Below, piece after piece: positions 16,364 to 22,477 of a stretch of DNA of 64,000 bases. Origin of the DNA: Coriobacteriia bacterium (GTDB lineage: Bacteria > Actinomycetota > Coriobacteriia > Anaerosomatales > PALSA-660); NCBI GenBank assembly GCA_030651905.1, contig JAUSBS010000100.1:19892-83891 (forward strand). Direction: 5' to 3'. Each line of letters starts with the position of its first letter. Within the stretch, counting starts at the first letter, position 1. Made by a program: the position numbers and the translations under genes. The notes under the pieces are model-generated. The model was not told where the DNA came from. It saw only the letters and a program-made list of their open reading frames with translations, and searched no databases.

Positions 16364-17062
16364 TCACTTCGCCGACTCGCCACTTCCCTCGAGGCGCCGG
16401 ACGTCCACCAGACGCGCTTGGACGATGAGGCGCTCGCGGGCGCTGTAGGGGGGATGACACGCCGTGAGCGTGAGCATCGGGTCCTCGGTGTGCGCCACGA
16501 CCTCCACGTGGTCGGGTGTCACCGCGAAGATGCGGACGACCTGGTAGCGGTAGCGGCGATACGGCGAGTAGAGGTCGATGGTATCACCCGATGTGAGCAC
16601 GTCCAGACTCCCGAAGGGGTGCCCGTACGTCGTGCGGTGGCCCGAGATGCCGACGTTGCCCGTCGCGCCCGGCAGATCGGTCGTGGTGATCCAGCCGGGG
16701 CCACGGCGAAGGTCGCCTGCCGCCGTTCCCTTCACGACGACCGTGTCGAGGCCCATCTTCTCGATCACGAGCCGCCCGAACGCTCCGCCGCGCGCGAGGG
16801 AACCCCAGTATCCCCCGTCGGCGGCGTCCCATCCGGAGAAGTCCATGAGGACGGGTTGCGCCGGCGATACCACCGAATTGCCGAGGACGGAAGCGACCAG
16901 CTGCGTGCGCAGGGCCGACTGGTCGAGGTAGTTCACCGCATCGGTGACCCCGACATAGGCCACAAGCCCGAGGGCCGCACCGAGCAGCACGTTGGCCAGC
17001 GCGTGAAGTGAGAGCCGGAGAGGGCCGACCGGCACACTCGCCGCAAGCACCGATCCACTCAT
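16364..17062 (-). CDS. class E sortase
   Basis: N-terminal TM segment, ISGHRTTYGHPF, catalytic TLTAC, and C-terminal RLIVQARL, typical of actinobacterial SrtE. GGGAGGGAGG RBS precedes ATG 17062. Confidence 0.85.
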   Translation of the reverse strand: MSGSVLAASVPVGPLRLSLHALANVLLGAALGLVAYVGVTDAVNYLDQSALRTQLVASVLGNSVVSPAQPVLMDFSGWDAADGGYWGSLARGGAFGRLVIEKMGLDTVVVKGTAAGDLRRGPGWITTTDLPGATGNVGISGHRTTYGHPFGSLDVLTSGDTIDLYSPYRRYRYQVVRIFAVTPDHVEVVAHTEDPMLTLTACHPPYSARERLIVQARLVDVRRLEGSGESAK

Positions 17063-17184
17063 GGCGGTCCGCCTCCCTCCCGCTACCGGCACCACCTCCG
17101 CGCGCTCCCCCACTATAAGTAATCTCACCTGACCTGCCGATATCACTCCTGTACGGCACGTTTGACATCAGGGACGCGAAAGCG

Positions 17185-17290
17185 GCTTCTCCCCGAAAAG
17201 GCACACCCCGCGAAAGCGGGGGTCGCAAAGTCACGGGTCTACCGGAGGGCGAAACCCCTCCCATGACGGCCGGACTGCCGAAGGTGAACG
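17185..17290 (+). promoter_or_regulatory. c-di-GMP-I (GEMM-I)-like riboswitch aptamer, copy 1
   Basis: GAAAAGGCACA-CCCCGC-GAAA-GCGGGG-GUCGCAAAGUCACGGGUCUACCGGAGGG-CGAAA-CCCCUCCCAUGACGGCCGGACUGCCGAAGG aligns block by block with the remembered Vc2 aptamer. That aptamer reads CAGGGCAAA-CCAUUC-GAAA-GAGUGG-GACGCAAAGCCUCCGGCC...GGUAGCGGGGUUACCGAUGG. It sits in the 5' leader of the HExxH gene. Confidence 0.65.
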
Positions 17291-17311
17291 ACCTGACGTC
17301 CGCATGGTGCG

Positions 17312-17367
17312 GCCGGGCCCTCCCGAAGGCGACGCGACCTTCGAGGATGAGCCCGGCTTCTCGTCTC
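17312..17367 (+). terminator. riboswitch expression platform: long GC hairpin plus UUCUCGUCU (putative attenuator), copy 1
   Basis: GCCGGGCCCUCCCGAAGG-CGACGCGA-CCUUCGAGGAUGAGCCCGGC followed by UUCUCGUCUCC. The 5' arm repeats the aptamer box CUCCCCGAAAAGGC as CCUCCCGAAGGC. Confidence 0.45.
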
Positions 17368-17394
17368 CCCGCACGCACAGGGAGTACGCGCACC

Positions 17395-18006
17395 ATGCAC
17401 CGTTGCTCATCATCCACACGACTCATCGCGGCGCTGACGATCGTCCTGATCGTCGCGCTCGTGGTTCCGGCGATCGTGAGCGCGGCACCCGTGCCGTTCC
17501 GGGTCGGTGCGACGAACGCCGGCTCCTCCGCTGCGCTCGCCTCTGTGGCCGAGGAGCACGCCCTCGACGCCAAGACCGCAGCGGTGGCCGCCGAGGCCGC
17601 TGCGTTGGCGGAGCAGCAGCGGATCGCAGCTGCCGCTCTGGTGGAGAAGGAGCGACTCGCGGCGGCGGCATACACGGCGGCCCGGACGAGCGCGAAGAAG
17701 CCGGCCGCCAAGACCGCGAAGATCTCAGGCGGCAGCGAGCTCACGCAGGCACAGTCGATCCTCGCCTCGCTCAGGTCCCGCTACCCCCGCTACCTGTCCG
17801 GAGCCACCGTCTCGATCGGCTCCGCAAAGGGCTACCAAGCGATCTCGTACTACACGTCGGGCCGCATCGTCATCAGCCCGACGCATCGAGCCAGTCTTGA
17901 GCGGATCCTCGCCCACGAGATCTGGCACATCATCGACTGGCGGGACAACGGCCGCATCGATTGGGGCGAGCGCGTACCGCCGAGCAACGCCGCGAGCTAC
18001 CGCTAG
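17395..18006 (+). CDS. secreted protein with minimal HExxH (zinc metallopeptidase-like) C-terminal domain, paralog 1
   Basis: Signal peptide MHRCSSSTRLIAALTIVLIVALVVPAIVSA, an Ala-rich linker, and the conserved C-terminal domain ...YPRYLSGATVSIGSAKGYQAISYYTSGRIVISPTHRASLERILAHEIWHIIDWRDNGRIDWGE. AGGGAG RBS. Confidence 0.75.
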   Translation: MHRCSSSTRLIAALTIVLIVALVVPAIVSAAPVPFRVGATNAGSSAALASVAEEHALDAKTAAVAAEAAALAEQQRIAAAALVEKERLAAAAYTAARTSAKKPAAKTAKISGGSELTQAQSILASLRSRYPRYLSGATVSIGSAKGYQAISYYTSGRIVISPTHRASLERILAHEIWHIIDWRDNGRIDWGERVPPSNAASYR

Positions 18007-18030
18007 CAGCTCGCGCTGAAGGATGCGAAC

Positions 18031-18051
18031 ACCGCCGGGTCATCCGGCGGT
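18031..18051 (+). terminator. hairpin after HExxH paralog 1
   Basis: ACCGCCGG-GTCAT-CCGGCGGT lies 25 nt after the stop. No U tract. Confidence 0.3.
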
Positions 18052-18228
18052 CTGGTCGTGCAGTGGCGCCGACCGGCCGGGCACCCGACGGCCCCTTTCG
18101 GCGTGTGCTGCTGCCGTTCATCGTAATCATGGACCTTCTATAAGCGAGAACCGTCCGACCCTATAAGGGTTCGCCACGTCGGTGCCGATAGTGTGTGATG
18201 TAAGGCACATTGACAGCGAGATGAATAC

Positions 18229-18335
18229 GGGTGCTCCCCGAAAAAGGCACAGCCCGCGAAAGCGGGCGTCGCAAAGTCACGGGTCTACCGGAGGCGGAAT
18301 CCAAGCCTCCCACGACAGCCGGACCGCCGAGGTAG
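18229..18335 (+). promoter_or_regulatory. c-di-GMP-I (GEMM-I)-like riboswitch aptamer, copy 2
   Basis: GAAAAAGGCACA-GCCCGC-GAAA-GCGGGC-GUCGCAAAGUCACGGGUCUACCGGAGGC...GCCUCCCACGACAGCCGGACCGCCGAGG. The P1b stem differs from copy 1 by compensatory changes (CCCCGC/GCGGGG versus GCCCGC/GCGGGC). Confidence 0.65.
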
Positions 18336-18357
18336 AGAACCAGGACTCGAATAAGTC

Positions 18358-18417
18358 GAGACCCGGGTGCTCCGAAGGCAAGATGCGACGGAGCGCTCCC
18401 GGGTCTCGTCTCGTGTC
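18358..18417 (+). terminator. riboswitch expression platform hairpin plus GUCUCGUGU, copy 2
   Basis: GAGACCCGGGUGCUCCG...CGGAGCGCUCCCGGGUCUC followed by GUCUCGUGUC. The 5' arm (CGGGUGCUCCGAAGGCA) duplicates the aptamer 5' segment (CGGGUGCUCCCCGAAAAAGGCA). Confidence 0.45.
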
Positions 18418-18437
18418 AGGTTCTCAAGGGGCGCACC

Positions 18438-19025
18438 ATGAAGTACACGATCAAGTCGCTGGCCACCACGATGATCGCCGCTCTCCTCCTGGCGATCCTG
18501 GTCCTGCCGCTCGCCGGCTCCGGAACCCCGGTCGCCAGCGGTGCATCGATCGCGGCCTCCAAGAGCGCCCCGTTCGCCGCCTACACCAGGCGGCGCCGTG
18601 TGAAGCGCGTCATCAAGCGCCGCAGGGTCCGCCACCATCATCACCGCGTCGTGCGTCGCCGCAAGGTCGCACGGCGCCCGGTCGCCACGGCGCCCGTCGC
18701 CCCGCTGGCCATCGTCGCAGCCCCGGTCGCCCCCACGGCTCCGGTCGTCGACGAGGCCGCTCTCGCGCAGACGATCCTCGACGGGCTCAAGGCGCAGTAT
18801 CCGCGCTACCTCAGCAACGCGACGGTCAGCATGGGAGATGCCATGGGATACCAGGCCATCTCCTACTACACCAGCGGGCGGATCGTCGTCAGCCCGACCC
18901 ACACGGCCACTCTCTCCAGGATCATGAACCACGAGATCTGGCACATCATCGACTGGCAGGACGATGGCGCGCTTGACTGGGGCGAGGCCATCCCGCCCAC
19001 GAACATGAGCACGTACGCGAACTAG
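18438..19025 (+). CDS. secreted protein with minimal HExxH domain, paralog 2 (carries an Arg/His-rich tract)
   Basis: Signal peptide MKYTIKSLATTMIAALLLAILVLPLAG. Polybasic tract RRRRVKRVIKRRRVRHHHHRVVRRRKVARR. The C-terminal domain is mostly identical by eye to paralog 1, including NHEIWHIIDWQDDG. Confidence 0.8.
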   Translation: MKYTIKSLATTMIAALLLAILVLPLAGSGTPVASGASIAASKSAPFAAYTRRRRVKRVIKRRRVRHHHHRVVRRRKVARRPVATAPVAPLAIVAAPVAPTAPVVDEAALAQTILDGLKAQYPRYLSNATVSMGDAMGYQAISYYTSGRIVVSPTHTATLSRIMNHEIWHIIDWQDDGALDWGEAIPPTNMSTYAN

Positions 19026-19047
19026 CTGTCCTGGGCAAGGACCGGTT

Positions 19048-19086
19048 GGAGGGGCCTCCCCGCGCGAGTCGCGGTGGGGCCCCTCC
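19048..19086. terminator. convergent-gene hairpin 1
   Basis: GGAGGGGCC...GGCCCCTCC stem between the converging HExxH-2 and LPXTG genes. Confidence 0.4.
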
Positions 19087-19136
19087 GCCGTTCTCGGTGA
19101 CCGCCATCGGATGCCGTGGATGACCCCGGACATGGT

Positions 19137-19174
19137 GGAGGGCGGGTCGTCTCCGAGGAGATGACCCGCCCTCC
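19137..19174. terminator. convergent-gene hairpin 2
   Basis: GGAGGGCGGGTC-GTCTCCGAGGAGAT-GACCCGCCCTCC, a 12-bp perfect outer stem. It lies 40 nt beyond the LPXTG gene stop. Confidence 0.45.
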
Positions 19175-19213
19175 GGGGGCAAGGACCGGCGGGGTGCGCC
19201 GGGCTTGTCGTCC

Positions 19214-22198
19214 TTATGCCACGCGGTGCGAGACGCGTCGAAGTACCACGCCTGCAAGCGCGAGCACGCCCGCCGCGAGCAGCAGCAGGTAGAGGTCGAT
19301 GCCGGTGAACGGCAGGAACGGCAGCGTCACGACCACGCGCGCCTTGTCCACGTTGTCGACCGGAGTCTTGTCGATCGTCGGATCATCCGGGAAGTCGATC
19401 TTGACGGTGTTGTCGATCTTCGTGCCGTCCGCCACGTCGCTCTTGACCCTCATCTTGTAGACGATGGTCCCGGAGGCATCGGGGAGGAGCGGGCCTGTGA
19501 GGTTCCACGTGATCTTGCCGCCCGACACGGTGCCCCCAGCCGCGTCGACAACGTCGACGTAGCGCTCGTCGTAGTCGTCCACGATCTGGAAGTCGGTGGC
19601 CGAGGCCTTGCCGTCGTTGCCGTAGACCAGCGTGTAGGTGAGGATCTCGTCCGGGTCCGCGATCGTTGGCGTGACCGACTTGTGGATCCAGAGATCCGGC
19701 TCGTCGAAACCGATGAACGGCTCCTGGTTGCCAAAGTCGAGGTCCTGGGTGGAAGAACCGCCCGTGACGGTGACGGGCTCAGGGCTGACCGTGCGAACCC
19801 AGCCCGTCTGCATCTCCTCAGTGAGGAAGTACAGCCCCGGCTTGAGGTTCCCGAACGAGTAGGCACCGCCGGGTCCGGTCGTGGTAGAGGCAACGAACAC
19901 ATAGTCCGCTGGGACCGACGGGCTCTCTTCGCCGCTGGCAGCCAGCATCGGGAGGGACTGGAACAGCTCTCTGATATCCCTGTGCCTGTAGAGATTGATG
20001 GTCCAGCCGGCGAGCAGGGGTTCGCCGATCGCCTTGATGGTGTCGCCGTTGAGGTCGTTGAACTTGACGCCGTTGAGATCGCTGAACTGGGTGTTGCCGA
20101 CCACAACGCGCTTGGTCTGCCCGCCGACCAGCGTGAACTCGACCGGGACCTCGCTCGTCGACTGGTACCAGCCCGTCTCGGAGGCCTCGGTGAGCTTGTA
20201 CGTACCGGGCATCAGGTTCTCGAACGACAGGTTGCCGGACGAGTCGGTCAACGCAGTGAACGTCGCCGTATCGGCCCCCGCGGGCCCCGTCAGTGTGAAT
20301 TCGCGTACGAGACCCGGCTCAGGGGCGTCAAAGATGCCATCACCGTTGAAGTCGTTGAACTTCACGACCTGAACGACCGCGAGCTCCTCGTTGGTGAAGT
20401 CCAGGTTGTACAGGTGGGTGGTGTGGCCGATGGTGGCGGCGTCAGCGGCGCTGTCATAGATCGGCGCGGACTTCTGCACCCAGCCGGTCTCCATGGCCTC
20501 CTCGACGTAGTAGTCGCCGGGCTCGAGGTCGTAGAAGGCCCAGTGGCCGGGAAGGCCGTCGACGGATCTGGTGACCGTCGTGGCGACCGAACCGATGGTG
20601 CCTGTCTTGTAGAGCTTGATGGTCCAGCCGTTGAGGCCGGCCCCGCCCTCGAAGTTGAACTTGTGGCCGGAGATCTCGTTGTCGACGACCTCGTCGTTTT
20701 TGAAGTCCAGGTCGGTCAGGTGGGTGGTGTGGCCGATGGTGGCGGCGTCAGCGGCGCTGTCATAGATCGGCGCGGACTTCTGCACCCAGCCGGTCTCCAT
20801 CTCTTCCTGCACGTAGTACTTGCCGGGCTCGAGGTCGTAGAAGGCCCAGTGGCCGGGAAGGCCGTCGACGGACTTGGTGATCGTCGAGGCGACCGAGGCT
20901 GCGGTGCCTTCCTTGTAGAGCTTGATGGTCCAGTTGTTGAGGCCGGCTCCGCCATCGAAGTTGAACTTGTGGCCGGAGATCTCGTTGGACACCTGTGCGT
21001 TCCCGAAGACTCCGCAATCCTTCGTCTCGGAATGCCCGAGCTGGAATCCACTTGTGATGCCGCTCTTCGTACAGATCCAGGTCTCACCGGCGGGAGCTGC
21101 GCCCTCCGCCAACTTGTAGTAGCCGTCGTCGACGACCCGCTTCGAGGGGTCGGTATCGTCGTGGCTGAAGAACACGAGACCGTTCGAATCGGTGGTCTTG
21201 GTGATCGTCTTCACTACCGTTGTGTACGTGCTGTCTGTGTACTGCGTCAGAACGAACGGCCAGCCACTGATCCAGGGCTCGCCGGTCTCCTGCACGCCGT
21301 CTGCGTCCAGGTCGTGGAACTTCTTGGCTTGGATGTGCGAGCAGAAGTCGGGCTCATCGGCGAAGCGGACGTCGATATGACTGAGGCCGGCCCACTGGCT
21401 GCCGTCACACTCCGTGCCGGATGGCGGGCTGTGCATGAGCGTGTCGTGGTAGCTCCCGTCCGTGCCGAACGCGCTGTATACGTTGGCGTTCGGACCGCCC
21501 TTGACCACCATGTAGGTGACGGGCGCAGTGGACGTCCACGCGAACACCGGTCCGTAGGTGCCGGTGCTCACAGTGATGGTGATGCTCACCGACGTGCCAT
21601 GGTGCAGGAACGAGTATGTCTGGGTGCCGGAGGAGATGGCCCCGGCGCCGGGCACGCCATCCGGAATCCTGAAGTCGCCCGCAACCAGACTCGGGTTGCC
21701 GTCCACTATCGTCGGCTGTACGCCGTCGCCCGAAGGACTGTTCAGCGCGGTCGTGCTCGACACGACGACGCCCATATCCAGCGCGGCAGCCGTGACGGTG
21801 ACGGGTGCGGGCTCCTCCGAGGGTGCCGGATCGGGCGCCGGTGCCGGGTCTGCCGGCGGCGCAGGGTCGGGCGCCGGTGCCGGGTCTGCCGGCGGCGCGG
21901 GATCAGGCGCGGGTGCCGGATCGGGTGCCGGTGCCGGGTCTGCCGGCGGCGCAGGGTCGGGCGCCGGTGCCGGATCAGGCGCAGGGTCTGGCGCTGGTGC
22001 CGGATCGGGCGCGGGTGCGGCCTGCTCCGGAGCAGGCGCATCGATCGCGTACGCGACCGCGACGACGCCAGGACCGGTCATGGCGAACACGAGCACCATG
22101 GCCGTGAGCGCCGCCAACCACTTGCGGATCCATCGAACGTGCGGCCTCGAGAGCGCCATCGTCCTCATCCCCCTGTCCGCGACGCGCCAGCGTCGCAT
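19214..22198 (-). CDS. LPXTG-anchored cell-surface protein with Pro-rich N-terminal tract, SdrD-B/Cna-B-like repeats and DUF11-like domain
   Basis: Signal peptide ...WLAALTAMVLVFAMTGPGVVAVAYA, then (PAPD)n. About 5-6 prealbumin-like repeats (GHKFNF...GW.I.LY...PG.Y...E....GW). A DUF11-like segment (LWIHKSV...ILTYTLVYGNDG). The C-terminus is LPFTG plus a hydrophobic stretch plus RRVSHRVA. Start is uncertain among ATG 22198, 22168 and 22159. Confidence 0.85.
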   Translation of the reverse strand: MRRWRVADRGMRTMALSRPHVRWIRKWLAALTAMVLVFAMTGPGVVAVAYAIDAPAPEQAAPAPDPAPAPDPAPDPAPAPDPAPPADPAPAPDPAPAPDPAPPADPAPAPDPAPPADPAPAPDPAPSEEPAPVTVTAAALDMGVVVSSTTALNSPSGDGVQPTIVDGNPSLVAGDFRIPDGVPGAGAISSGTQTYSFLHHGTSVSITITVSTGTYGPVFAWTSTAPVTYMVVKGGPNANVYSAFGTDGSYHDTLMHSPPSGTECDGSQWAGLSHIDVRFADEPDFCSHIQAKKFHDLDADGVQETGEPWISGWPFVLTQYTDSTYTTVVKTITKTTDSNGLVFFSHDDTDPSKRVVDDGYYKLAEGAAPAGETWICTKSGITSGFQLGHSETKDCGVFGNAQVSNEISGHKFNFDGGAGLNNWTIKLYKEGTAASVASTITKSVDGLPGHWAFYDLEPGKYYVQEEMETGWVQKSAPIYDSAADAATIGHTTHLTDLDFKNDEVVDNEISGHKFNFEGGAGLNGWTIKLYKTGTIGSVATTVTRSVDGLPGHWAFYDLEPGDYYVEEAMETGWVQKSAPIYDSAADAATIGHTTHLYNLDFTNEELAVVQVVKFNDFNGDGIFDAPEPGLVREFTLTGPAGADTATFTALTDSSGNLSFENLMPGTYKLTEASETGWYQSTSEVPVEFTLVGGQTKRVVVGNTQFSDLNGVKFNDLNGDTIKAIGEPLLAGWTINLYRHRDIRELFQSLPMLAASGEESPSVPADYVFVASTTTGPGGAYSFGNLKPGLYFLTEEMQTGWVRTVSPEPVTVTGGSSTQDLDFGNQEPFIGFDEPDLWIHKSVTPTIADPDEILTYTLVYGNDGKASATDFQIVDDYDERYVDVVDAAGGTVSGGKITWNLTGPLLPDASGTIVYKMRVKSDVADGTKIDNTVKIDFPDDPTIDKTPVDNVDKARVVVTLPFLPFTGIDLYLLLLAAGVLALAGVVLRRVSHRVA
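20396..20995 (-). repeat. two tandem 306-bp (102-codon) near-identical intragenic repeats
   Basis: The block beginning GAAGTCCAGGT...GGTGGGTGGTGTGGCCGATGGTGGCGGCGTCAGCGGCGCTGTCATAGATCGGCGCGGACTTCTGCACCCAGCCGGTCTCCAT recurs at an offset of exactly 306 nt (20396 versus 20702). Long runs are identical. Confidence 0.8.
21822..22018 (-). repeat. low-complexity GC-rich repeat encoding (DPAPAPDPAPPA)n
   Basis: Reiterated GGTGCCGGGTCTGCCGGCGGCGCAGGGTCGGGCGCC-type units of about 36 nt. They are in frame within the surface protein. Confidence 0.7.
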
Positions 22199-22477
22199 CT
22201 ACTCGCCGCGGCCGGCTGCTACAGGTATGAGGACGCAGAAGACCGGCCGCCTCGGGCCGGTCTCACGATTGACTCCCCGCCGGTCAAACTCGTGACCGTC
22301 ATGCACACCGGCGGATCGCAGTCTCCCGAATTCACAGTATGTAGTGCACCCCGAAAGCCGTGGTACACCTTGCCCCTGCTGGGCGTTATACCCCCTCGCG
22401 AATGCGCCGGTAAGCCCCCGTTGGGCGAATTCATACCAGAGGATGAGTGGTTTCTTAGAGACGCTCTCGTGCGGGTG

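What the first reader, a model, noticed from the sequence alone, without database searches (positions are those of the whole stretch)
17291..17394. Expression platforms contain a decoy copy of the aptamer 5' box inside a terminator-like hairpin (predicted OFF switch)
In both leaders a long GC hairpin followed by (U)UCUCGUCUC/GUCUCGUGUC sits between the aptamer and the RBS (17312-17367; 18358-18417). The 5' arm of each hairpin repeats the aptamer 5' box. In copy 1, CUCCCCGAAAAGGCA is repeated as CCUCCCGAAGGCGA. In copy 2, CGGGUGCUCCCCGAAAAAGGCA is repeated as CGGGUGCUCCGAAGGCA. In copy 1 the aptamer 3' tail CCGAAGG can also pair with CCUUCG of the hairpin 3' arm. This implies mutually exclusive folds. 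My reading is that ligand binding frees the hairpin to form, giving attenuation at high c-di-GMP, but the polarity is not certain.
Basis: inference. Interest (0 to 1): 0.55.

Follow-up and report, generated by a model that had tools for sequence, protein, structure and literature searches.

The report
Riboswitch leader hairpins: probably translational switch
Two c-di-GMP riboswitch leaders in an uncultured Coriobacteriia genome each carry a real, conserved GC hairpin, but comparison with about 40 related leaders suggests an ordinary ribosome-binding-site masking switch rather than a decoy-containing terminator.

Summary
Both hairpins are real: 17312-17357 and 18355-18410. The repeated 5' box is beyond chance only in copy 2, where 10 nt are exact (p about 0.002). 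It is not conserved: only 3 of 41 related leaders reach p<0.05.

In 44 orthologous leaders from metagenomes, three elements are conserved and covary:
- the hairpin stem;
- a roughly 200-nt long-range helix (P0) between the P1 5' strand plus upstream bases and the Shine-Dalgarno/spacer.

Alpha:alpha' and P0 are mutually exclusive. P1 overlaps P0 but not alpha:alpha'.

My best reading is a translational switch. Without ligand, P0 masks the ribosome-binding site. With c-di-GMP, P1 and alpha:alpha' form and free it, so the switch is ON. Polarity is inferred, and biological analogy argues for OFF.

A ligand-controlled terminator is weakly supported. No conserved competitor of the stem was found, and the stem forms regardless of P1 in 33 of 41 models. 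It cannot be excluded, because gene-end hairpins in this lineage also lack U-tracts.

Verdict: a new member of a known kind, of moderate interest.

The parts
17116..17142 (+). Leader 1 promoter-like element, TAAG-N16-GCCGATA (sigma-28/WhiG type)
   Evidence: Read from the sequence. The consensus cTAAAG-N15-(T)GCCGATA is conserved upstream of 40 orthologous leaders. That this matches the sigma-28/WhiG consensus is from my own knowledge.
17171..17183 (+). Leader 1 alpha, the 5' flank strand (GGGACGCGAAAGC) that pairs with the tail after the hairpin
   Evidence: Duplex of -16.4 kcal/mol with 17356-17369, p = 0.067 against shuffles. Across the family, alpha:alpha' co-varies with p = 2e-4.
17182..17195 (+). 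Leader 1 A2: the P1 5' strand (CCCG, 17192-17195) plus upstream bases, an anti-SD-like CUCCCC tract
   Evidence: Duplex with the SD region 17375-17398 of -14.6 kcal/mol, p = 0.09. It is not used in the minimum-energy fold of this copy. The 9-nt stretch CGGCUUCUC recurs at 17354-17362.
17191..17283 (+). Aptamer 1 (c-di-GMP-I clan)
   Evidence: RF03167, 68.2 bits against a gathering score of 59. It has A, not the model's G, after CGC.
17301..17311 (+). Leader 1 start-codon masking strand (CGCAUGGUGCG)
   Evidence: A 10-bp perfect helix with 17389-17398 (CGCACCAUGC), -20.9 kcal/mol, p = 0.007. It is present in the minimum-energy fold. Eight base pairs are kept in relative L002 (read).
17312..17357 (+). 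Hairpin H1, the finding's 'terminator-like hairpin'
   Evidence: The homologous stem co-varies in orthologs.
17356..17370 (+). Leader 1 tail, alpha' (GCUUCUCGUCUCCCC). It pairs with alpha, or locally with the SD in the minimum-energy fold.
17380..17397 (+). Leader 1 Shine-Dalgarno GGGAG (17380-17384), spacer and AUG (17395-17397) of a 203-aa HExxH protein
   Evidence: SD and AUG are fully paired in the model.
18164..18190 (+). Leader 2 promoter-like element, TAAG-N16-GCCGATA
18211..18224 (+). Leader 2 alpha (UGACAGCGAGAUGA)
   Evidence: A 13-bp duplex with 18406-18418, -18.4 kcal/mol against -8.7 +/- 2.4 for shuffles, p = 0.001. Relative L001 has U changed to C, which turns a U.G pair into C:G (read).
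18227..18240 (+). Leader 2 A2: the P1 5' strand (CCCG, 18237-18240) plus upstream bases, acting as anti-SD. It contains the original of the repeated box (18228-18237).
   Evidence: Duplex with 18422-18441 of -19.6 kcal/mol, p = 0.004. It pairs with the SD in the minimum-energy fold.
18237..18332 (+). Aptamer 2 (c-di-GMP-I clan)
   Evidence: RF03167, 62.5 bits.
18335..18341 (+). Leader 2 beta (GAGAACC), which pairs with beta' (GGUUCUC, 18419-18425) to close the platform rod
   Evidence: Minimum-energy folds. Family-wide support is moderate: p = 2e-4 over all leaders, p = 0.25 within group A.
18355..18410 (+). Hairpin H2. Its 5' arm holds the 10-nt exact copy of the 5' box at 18364-18373.
18406..18418 (+). 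Leader 2 tail, alpha' (UCGUCUCGUGUCA), which overlaps the base of H2
18426..18440 (+). Leader 2 Shine-Dalgarno AAGGGG, spacer CGCACC and AUG (18438) of a 195-aa HExxH protein
   Evidence: GGGGCGCACC is complementary to GGUGCUCCCC.

Best explanation
The two hairpins are the central stem (H) of a long expression platform that is conserved in a family of c-di-GMP-I riboswitch leaders. These leaders sit upstream of small secreted HExxH proteins in uncultured Coriobacteriia.

The order of elements is: sigma-28-like promoter, alpha, A2 (ending in the P1 5' strand CCCG), aptamer, beta, H, alpha', beta', SD, AUG.

The 5' segment has three partners that tile along it:
- alpha' pairs with alpha;
- the SD plus spacer pairs with A2, forming helix P0, which spans about 200 nt;
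- the P1 3' strand pairs with the last 4 nt of A2.

P0 overlaps both of the other helices and crosses alpha:alpha' in pseudoknot order. The folds are therefore either P0, or P1 together with alpha:alpha'.

Shown: these helices exist as conserved, co-varying complementarity, and the SD is buried in the modelled ligand-free fold.

Inferred:
- Without c-di-GMP, P0 and the closed platform rod mask the ribosome-binding site.
- With c-di-GMP, the locked P1 and alpha:alpha' keep A2 off the SD and translation is ON.
- H forms in both states, as a scaffold that presents alpha'.
- The copy of the 5' box in its 5' arm in leader 2 is a lineage-specific feature, not the switch.
- Leader 1 is a derived version. 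A local helix masks its AUG, and a copy of the anti-SD tract sits in the tail.

The confidence of 0.45 is for mechanism and ON polarity together. For a translation-level toggle of either polarity I would give about 0.65.
For: - The aptamer is found upstream of 44 homologous genes in metagenome loci.
- Alpha:alpha' co-varies. Own-partner duplexes average -15.3 kcal/mol against -11.2 for swapped partners, permutation p = 2e-4. Within group A the values are -13.9 against -12.3, p = 2e-4. On alignment A4 it has 11 pairs, 83.6% of cells paired and 4 pairs changed on both sides.
- P0 co-varies. A2 with the SD region averages -15.2 against -12.5 kcal/mol, p = 2e-4. Examples are GGAUCGCUCCCC/GGGGCGAUCC, GGUGCUCCCC/GGGGCGCACC and ACGCUCCC/GGGAGCGU. 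RNAalifold selects the C-run:SD pairs rather than P1.
- Cross-combinations serve as negative controls: alpha with SD p = 0.17, A2 with alpha' p = 0.85.
- In 35 of 41 full leaders the minimum-energy fold has at least 6 long-range pairs from the 5' flank to the SD, with all 4 SD core bases paired and a median of 2 P1 bases used.
- The median unpaired probability of the SD core rises from 0.01 to 0.32 when P1 is enforced.
- Column 199 co-varies with both column 19 (in alpha) and column 157 (at the base of H), AU:4 in each case. This fits a true alternative pairing at the junction of H and alpha'.
- In the window, alpha with the tail gives p = 0.001 and A2 with the SD gives p = 0.004 in leader 2.
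- In minimum-energy folds of growing transcripts, alpha:alpha' appears once alpha' is made. In leader 2 it persists longer with P1 enforced, and in L013 it appears only with P1 enforced.
Against: - Nearest-neighbour energies put the fold with alpha:alpha' plus P1 about 20 kcal/mol above the free ensemble, and the fold with P0 plus P1 only about 10 kcal/mol above it. The coupling between P1 and alpha:alpha' is only about -2 kcal/mol.
- P0 overlaps P1 by only 1-3 nt, so P0 could instead stack on P1 in a three-way junction. That would give an OFF switch.
- With P1 enforced, the spacer and AUG stay largely paired in the models.
- Leader 1, the finding's own coordinates, does not use P0 in its minimum-energy fold, and its SD and AUG stay masked in every modelled state.
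- Biological analogy favours OFF. In C. difficile a class-I riboswitch turns off the protease PPEP-1, while class-II riboswitches turn on its sortase-anchored substrates (PMC11477304).
- By my own knowledge, a sigma-28/WhiG-type promoter is usually active at low c-di-GMP.
- No experiment or kinetic simulation was possible.
Confidence: 0.45

Rival explanations
1. H is an intrinsic terminator whose formation depends on ligand. Without c-di-GMP, the 5' box (A2) and/or the P1 3' strand hold one arm of H. With c-di-GMP, P1 forms, H folds and transcription stops, so the switch is OFF.
For: - In the window, A (alpha plus A2) can pair with the hairpin 3' arm plus tail at -29.9 kcal/mol (p = 0.003) and -28.1 kcal/mol (p = 0.012).
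- The 10-nt exact copy in leader 2 has p about 0.002.
- In 8 of 41 relatives the modelled probability of H rises from below 0.5 to 0.44-0.99 when P1 is enforced.
- Gene-end hairpins in these lineages lack U-tracts too: 2.6 against 2.5 U per 12 nt.
- The class-II riboswitch leader in this window has a GC hairpin with a similar UCUGCGUCCUC tail that overlaps its aptamer.
- The hairpin after ORF1 ends in UCUGGUCGUGC.
- The OFF polarity matches the C. difficile PPEP-1 precedent (PMC11477304).
Against: - There is no U-tract, and the terminator scan is negative on the + strand. Canonical terminators are not enriched in this window.
- In most orthologs the tail is GAUGUGCGC, and it is conserved as the partner of alpha. 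That pairing cannot act at the moment of termination, because the tail is still inside the polymerase (inference).
- H forms with probability above 0.5 regardless of P1 in 33 of 41 leaders, including both window copies.
- The competitor pairings do not co-vary: A2 with the H 3' arm p = 0.06 overall and 0.97 in group A; P1-3' with the H 5' arm p = 0.085; P1-3' with the H 3' arm p = 0.53.
- The decoy repeat is absent in 38 of 41 leaders.
Confidence: 0.15
2. This is a translational OFF switch. Ligand-bound P1 stacks on P0 and the platform rod in a tight three-way junction, which stabilises the SD-masking helix. Without ligand, alpha:alpha' (extended by A2 pairing with the G-rich 3' arm of H) holds A2 away from the SD and translation proceeds.
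For: - P0 and P1 abut, with only 1-3 nt of overlap. The P1 3' strand runs directly into beta.
- The fold with P0 plus P1 is about 10 kcal/mol cheaper than the fold with alpha:alpha' plus P1 in nearest-neighbour models.
- There is a precedent, known to me only from its title, for a c-di-GMP-I riboswitch that represses translation by masking a distant ribosome-binding site (Inuzuka et al. 2018, cited in PMC11218506).
- The polarity is coherent with the sigma-28-like promoter and with the C. difficile circuit.
Against: - P1 shares no bases with alpha:alpha' but does share bases with P0, which is the opposite of what an OFF design needs.
- Enforcing P1 raises rather than lowers SD accessibility in most models: median 0.01 to 0.32.
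- In the models the ligand-free ensemble already buries the SD.
Confidence: 0.2
3. The repeat in leader 2 and the hairpins have no switching role. H is a stability or processing element, or a remnant of a local duplication, and regulation rests only on the aptamer and the SD.
For: The repeat is lineage-specific and is already degraded in the closest retrieved relative, L001, where CGGGCCCUCC replaces CGGGUGCUCC. H is predicted to form in all states.
Against: - H is conserved in position, with co-varying base pairs such as column 162/194 (AU:13, GC:8), in all about 44 leaders.
- Its 3' strand runs directly into alpha'.
- Its conserved C-rich and G-rich arms suggest sequence constraints beyond a plain stem.
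Confidence: 0.1

Closest known systems
c-di-GMP-I (GEMM-I) riboswitches with translational expression platforms, such as Vibrio cholerae Vc2
   Same: - The aptamer fold is the same (Rfam clan CL00126).
- The P2 loop is GAAA, and the contact bases are G, A and C.
- The ribosome-binding site lies far from the aptamer and is masked by a long-range pairing. For Vc2 this rests on the title of Inuzuka et al. 2018, cited in PMC11218506.
   Different: - Here the anti-SD is the P1 5' strand itself plus its upstream bases.
- A second conserved long-range helix (alpha:alpha') competes with it.
- An approximately 50-80-nt rod lies between the aptamer and the SD.
- The inferred polarity is ON, whereas Vc2 represses.
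- Complementarity between the 5' flank and the SD is rare among 93 unrelated GEMM-I leaders: median z = 0, and 7 with z < -2.
Transcriptional OFF c-di-GMP-I riboswitches of Firmicutes (C. difficile Cd1/flgB and ppep-1; Bacillus thuringiensis Bc1)
   Same: - A GC hairpin follows the aptamer.
- The gene context is similar: a secreted metalloprotease next to a sortase and a sortase-anchored surface protein that carries a class-II riboswitch (PMC11477304).
   Different: - Those terminators have clear poly-U tails (PMC11218506). Here there is none.
- Here the tail is a conserved pairing partner of the 5' flank.
- No conserved antiterminator was found.
- The protease is not homologous to PPEP-1. It has no Pfam or PDB sequence match, and its fold resembles minigluzincins such as selecase.
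Classical four-strand riboswitch platforms, in which a terminator or sequestor 5' arm resembles the P1 5' strand
   Same: In leader 2 the 5' arm of H copies 10 nt of the P1 5' region, so both can pair with the same 3' strand.
   Different: - The copy is not conserved.
- The P1 3' strand has only about 4 bp of complementarity to it.
- H is far more stable than any competitor: about -39 kcal/mol for H against roughly -12 kcal/mol for the part of the competitor that replaces H.

Membership tests
c-di-GMP-I riboswitch aptamer (Rfam clan CL00126) | Scores above the curated gathering threshold of a clan covariance model | tested here: met
   68.2 and 62.5 bits against a gathering score of 59 for RF03167.
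c-di-GMP-I riboswitch aptamer (Rfam clan CL00126) | P2 and P3 helices with co-variation, and a GNRA (GAAA) loop on P2 | tested here: met
   RNAalifold on 27 orthologs recovers P2 and P3 with many double changes, for example column 89/102 with AU:15 and GC:12. GAAA is invariant.
c-di-GMP-I riboswitch aptamer (Rfam clan CL00126) | Ligand-contact bases equivalent to Vc2 G20, A47 and C92 | tested here: inconclusive
   The sequence has AAAG|GC, CGC-A-AAG and UGC-C-G in both copies and in all orthologs. The identity of the key positions is taken from PMC11218506. The mapping onto this sequence is my own alignment by eye.
c-di-GMP-I riboswitch aptamer (Rfam clan CL00126) | Binds c-di-GMP | not testable with these tools
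   This needs in-line probing or calorimetry.
c-di-GMP-I-GGC variant (RF03167) | The variant base after CGC: the model consensus reads CGC-G-AA | tested here: not met
   Both copies and all 44 orthologs have A at this position (the mismatch is visible in the alignment). The best hit is to this model, but the variant-defining base is the canonical one. What 'GGC' stands for is my inference; I could not find the original definition.
Intrinsic (Rho-independent) terminator | GC-rich stem-loop | tested here: met
Intrinsic (Rho-independent) terminator | A run of U immediately after the stem | tested here: not met
   There is no site on the + strand in the scan. Tails across 45 leaders average 2.5 U per 12 nt. 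The caveat is that gene-end hairpins in the same loci average 2.6 U per 12 nt.
Riboswitch-controlled terminator | A conserved alternative pairing, linked to the aptamer, that excludes the terminator stem | tested here: inconclusive
   The alternative is present on paper in the window and in 8 of 41 models. There is no co-variation, and H dominates in 33 of 41 models.
Translational riboswitch platform (SD sequestration) | The SD is complementary to an anti-SD, and the pairing is maintained by co-variation | tested here: met
Translational riboswitch platform (SD sequestration) | The anti-SD, or its competitor, overlaps an aptamer helix so that ligand binding changes SD access | tested here: met
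   P0 uses 1-3 of the 4 bases of the P1 5' strand. Enforcing P1 raises modelled SD exposure. The real ligand response is not testable here.
Sigma-28 / FliA / WhiG-type promoter | TAAA-N15/16-GCCGATAA (consensus from my own knowledge) | tested here: met
   cTAAAG-N15-(T)GCCGATA is found in 40 loci. The window has TAAG-N16-GCCGATA twice. Use by such a sigma factor is not testable here.

The most novel reading that the evidence does not exclude
Uncultured Coriobacteriia may have independently built the C. difficile-style c-di-GMP circuit, in which class-II riboswitches control adhesins and class-I riboswitches control a protease. Here the protease family would be unrelated minimal zincins. Each gene would be driven by a sigma-28/WhiG-type promoter and gated by a bistable toggle of two long-range helices, alpha:alpha' versus anti-SD:SD, spanning about 200 nt. 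c-di-GMP would then act twice on the same gene, once through the sigma factor and once through the RNA, possibly with opposite signs, giving a band-pass response.
Probability: 0.2. Interest if true: 0.55.

Novelty: new member of a known kind. Interest (0 to 1): 0.33.

Why it matters
If the toggle model holds, this family is a clean natural example of three features: a riboswitch whose P1 strand doubles as the anti-Shine-Dalgarno sequence across about 200 nt, a second conserved helix acting as anti-sequestor, and about 40 natural sequence variants available to test it.

It also warns against reading GC hairpins with pyrimidine-rich tails as terminators in high-GC Actinomycetota. It links c-di-GMP riboswitches to sigma-28/WhiG-type promoters and to an uncharacterised family of secreted mini-metalloproteases next to sortase and adhesin genes.

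It does not change what is known about how riboswitches work.

Tried and rejected
- **Anti-P1 helix.** Alpha pairing with the P1 3' strand plus beta appears in the L013 growing-transcript folds, but it does not co-vary (p = 0.84). Rejected as a family feature.
- **Linker pairing with alpha'.** This extension of the rod looked supported when the segments overlapped H. With clean segments it is weak (-6.2 kcal/mol) and does not co-vary (p = 0.67).
- **Decoy arm pairing with the SD, and A2 pairing with the hairpin 3' arm in group A.** Neither co-varies (p = 0.77 and 0.97).
- **A start codon in CCGAUG right after H.** It is preceded by GGAGG at 9-10 nt, which suggested a true start or an upstream ORF. 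It is in frame with the gene in only about a third of loci, as chance predicts, and it is absent in the window's subgroup.
- **U-tract as a discriminator.** This fails because gene-end hairpins in these lineages are equally poor in U.
- **Identifying the protein by sequence.** There is no Pfam family and no PDB sequence match. Only fold similarity to minigluzincins was found, with weak E-values.
- **The generic genome-wide GEMM-I scan.** The pattern was too general to give orthologs. I used it only as a background set.
- **Literature.** I could not retrieve the Vc2 translational-repression paper or the original definition of the GGC variant.

Full report
**What is there**

The window comes from an uncultured Coriobacteriia genome. 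ORF2 is 100% identical to a protein of a 'Coriobacteriia bacterium' MAG. Rfam finds two c-di-GMP-I-clan aptamers at 17191-17283 and 18237-18332, and a class-II aptamer at 22246-22335 on the minus strand.

The two class-I leaders are paralogous (79% column identity). They precede two paralogous genes for small secreted HExxH proteins, at 17395-18006 and 18438-19025.

The best Rfam model is the 'GGC' variant. However, both copies, and all orthologs, carry A where that model has G after CGC. They therefore look like canonical c-di-GMP binders. The key positions G20, A47 and C92 are taken from PMC11218506.

**Checking the observation**

Both hairpins are real and fold far better than shuffles. They lie at 17312-17357 and 18355-18410.

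The repeat in copy 2 is striking. CGGGUGCUCC at 18228-18237 recurs exactly at 18364-18373, with p about 0.001-0.003.

The alignment given for copy 1 is not above chance. A different 9-nt repeat is marginally so: 17184-17192 recurs at 17354-17362, in the 3' end of the hairpin and its tail (p about 0.015).

**Relatives**

A profile of 44 homologous proteins retrieved 80 metagenome loci. The aptamer lies just upstream of the gene in 44 of them. Aligning the leaders shows one shared layout:
- a conserved cTAAAG-N15-(T)GCCGATA promoter-like element;
- a 5' flank, which I call alpha;
- the P1 5' strand with its upstream bases, A2;
- the aptamer;
- a short strand, beta;
- the hairpin, H;
- a tail, alpha';
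- beta';
- the Shine-Dalgarno sequence, usually AAGGGG;
- the start codon.

In most relatives the tail after H reads GAUGUGCGC. The 5'-box repeat is found at p<0.05 in only 3 of 41 leaders.

**Which pairings evolution keeps**

I compared the duplex energy of each leader's own segments with the energy obtained when partners are swapped between leaders. Three pairings stand out, each with permutation p = 2e-4:
- the two arms of H;
- alpha with alpha';
- A2 with the SD/spacer, which I call P0.

On an alignment of 27 leaders, alpha:alpha' has 11 pairs, 83.6% paired cells and 4 pairs changed on both sides. RNAalifold picks the pairing of the C-run with the SD in preference to P1.

Cross-combinations used as controls are flat.

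These are the P1 3' strand with either hairpin arm, the decoy arm with the SD, and A2 with the hairpin 3' arm.

In the window itself:
- Alpha with the tail gives -18.4 kcal/mol (p = 0.001) in leader 2.
- A2 with the SD gives -19.6 kcal/mol (p = 0.004) in leader 2.
- Leader 1 is weaker (p = 0.07 and 0.09), but it has a perfect 10-bp helix that masks its start codon.

The stretch read as a U-tract is therefore one strand of a conserved helix with the 5' flank.

**Mechanism**

Alpha:alpha' and P0 cross each other in pseudoknot order with no spacer between alpha and A2, and they share the bases CGG. They cannot coexist (inference).

Along the 5' segment the three partners tile in order: alpha', then the SD, then the P1 3' strand. 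The SD partner overlaps both neighbours, while alpha' and P1 do not overlap each other. The simplest reading is two states: P0, or P1 together with alpha:alpha'.

Models agree in part:
- In 35 of 41 leaders the minimum-energy fold has the long-range helix that masks the SD.
- Enforcing P1 raises the unpaired probability of the SD core from 0.01 to 0.32.
- Alpha:alpha' appears in folds of growing transcripts once alpha' is made.

I therefore favour a translational switch that c-di-GMP turns ON, with H as a constitutive scaffold.

**Weak points**

- Nearest-neighbour energies favour keeping most of P0 even with P1 formed, and they give only about -2 kcal/mol of coupling between P1 and alpha:alpha'.
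- The overlap of 1-3 nt could equally allow P0 to stack on P1, which would make an OFF switch.
- Leader 1 stays masked in every modelled state.

**Is the hairpin a terminator?**

Against:
- There is no U-tract.
- The tail is conserved for pairing.
- On transcripts ending at H, the hairpin forms with probability above 0.5 whether or not P1 is enforced in 33 of 41 leaders. The window values are 0.92 versus 0.94 and 0.80 versus 0.90.

For:
- Eight relatives do show P1-dependent hairpin formation in the model.
- The long alternative helix, 5' flank plus box with the 3' arm plus tail, is significant in both window copies.
- Gene-end hairpins in these lineages are just as poor in U, and canonical terminators are not enriched in the window.
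- The class-II leader here has a similar hairpin and tail that overlap its aptamer.

Termination cannot be excluded, but the comparative evidence does not support it as the conserved switch.

**Context and polarity**

The proteins have no Pfam family and no PDB sequence relatives. The confident C-terminal domain of the model resembles minimal zinc peptidases such as selecase and abylysin.

The neighbours are a sortase at 16364-17146 and a 994-aa surface protein with an LPFTG motif under the class-II riboswitch.

This mirrors C. difficile. There a class-I OFF switch controls the protease PPEP-1, and class-II ON switches control its sortase-anchored substrates (PMC11477304). That analogy, together with the sigma-28-like promoter, argues for OFF. 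The RNA logic argues for ON. I regard polarity as unresolved, with ON slightly ahead.

**Novelty**

The aptamer class is known, and so is control by SD masking. Complementarity between the 5' flank and the SD is uncommon among 93 unrelated GEMM-I leaders but does recur (7 with z < -2). This is a new, well-populated member of a known kind, with a neat competing-helix layout.

Noticed in passing
window 17116-17142 and 18164-18190; also 40 orthologous loci: A conserved promoter-like element, cTAAAG-N15/16-(T)GCCGATA, lies upstream of every leader. It matches the sigma-28/FliA/WhiG consensus as I recall it. This suggests that these riboswitch-controlled genes belong to a sigma-28/WhiG-type regulon.
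   Followed up: partly
window 17150-17167 and 18197-18215: A conserved stretch, (C)AGTGTAnGG...TTGAnA, lies between the -10-like box and alpha. TTGA_A is invariant in 44 leaders. In leader 2, UGACA pairs with UGUCA at 18414-18418, but not in most relatives. Its function is unknown.
   Followed up: partly
window 22229-22335 (- strand): The class-II (c-di-GMP-II-GAG) aptamer is followed by a GC hairpin at 22263-22240 whose 5' arm lies inside the aptamer, and then by the tail UCUGCGUCCUC. This looks like a classical ON-type terminator platform. It lies upstream of a 994-aa surface protein with SpaA, SdrD and DUF11 domains and an LPFTG motif.
   Followed up: partly
window 16364-22335: The gene neighbourhood is: sortase, two riboswitch-controlled mini-metalloprotease genes, then a sortase-substrate-like adhesin with a class-II riboswitch. 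This parallels the C. difficile PPEP-1/CD2831 circuit (PMC11477304), although the proteases are unrelated.
   Followed up: partly
window 17395-18006 and 18438-19025: The two genes encode paralogous proteins of about 200 aa. Each has an N-terminal hydrophobic helix, a disordered linker and a conserved C-terminal HEIWHIID domain. They have no Pfam family. Only 44 homologs were found in a 5.8-billion-protein search, nearly all from metagenomes. The fold resembles minigluzincins.
   Followed up: partly
window 17225 and 18271 region (CGC-A-AAG): Rfam assigns both aptamers to the GGC variant family, yet they carry the canonical A at the position where that model has G. The assignment probably reflects overall sequence similarity rather than altered ligand specificity.
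   Followed up: partly
window 17302-17311 with 17389-17398: Leader 1 has a perfect 10-bp helix that buries its own start codon (p = 0.007). Eight of these base pairs are shared with relative L002. This makes leader 1 a derived variant of the family platform.
   Followed up: partly
loci L013, L022, L012 and others (group A), the 3' arm of H and alpha': GGAGG-N9/10-AUG is conserved inside the hairpin 3' arm and tail. It looks like a ribosome-binding site plus start codon, but it is in frame with the gene in only about a third of loci and is absent in the window.
   Followed up: partly
window 18007-18100 and 19026-19110; gene ends in L001-L080: Gene-end GC hairpins in this lineage generally lack U-tracts: 2.6 U in the 12 nt after the stem. 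The simple terminator scan finds fewer sites than in shuffled sequence.
   Followed up: partly
loci L087, L104, L157, L101: A few unrelated GEMM-I leaders, from Actinomycetota, Thermoleophilaceae and Nitrospira, also show strong complementarity between the 5' flank and the SD (z < -2.6). L087 may belong to the same leader family.
   Followed up: no
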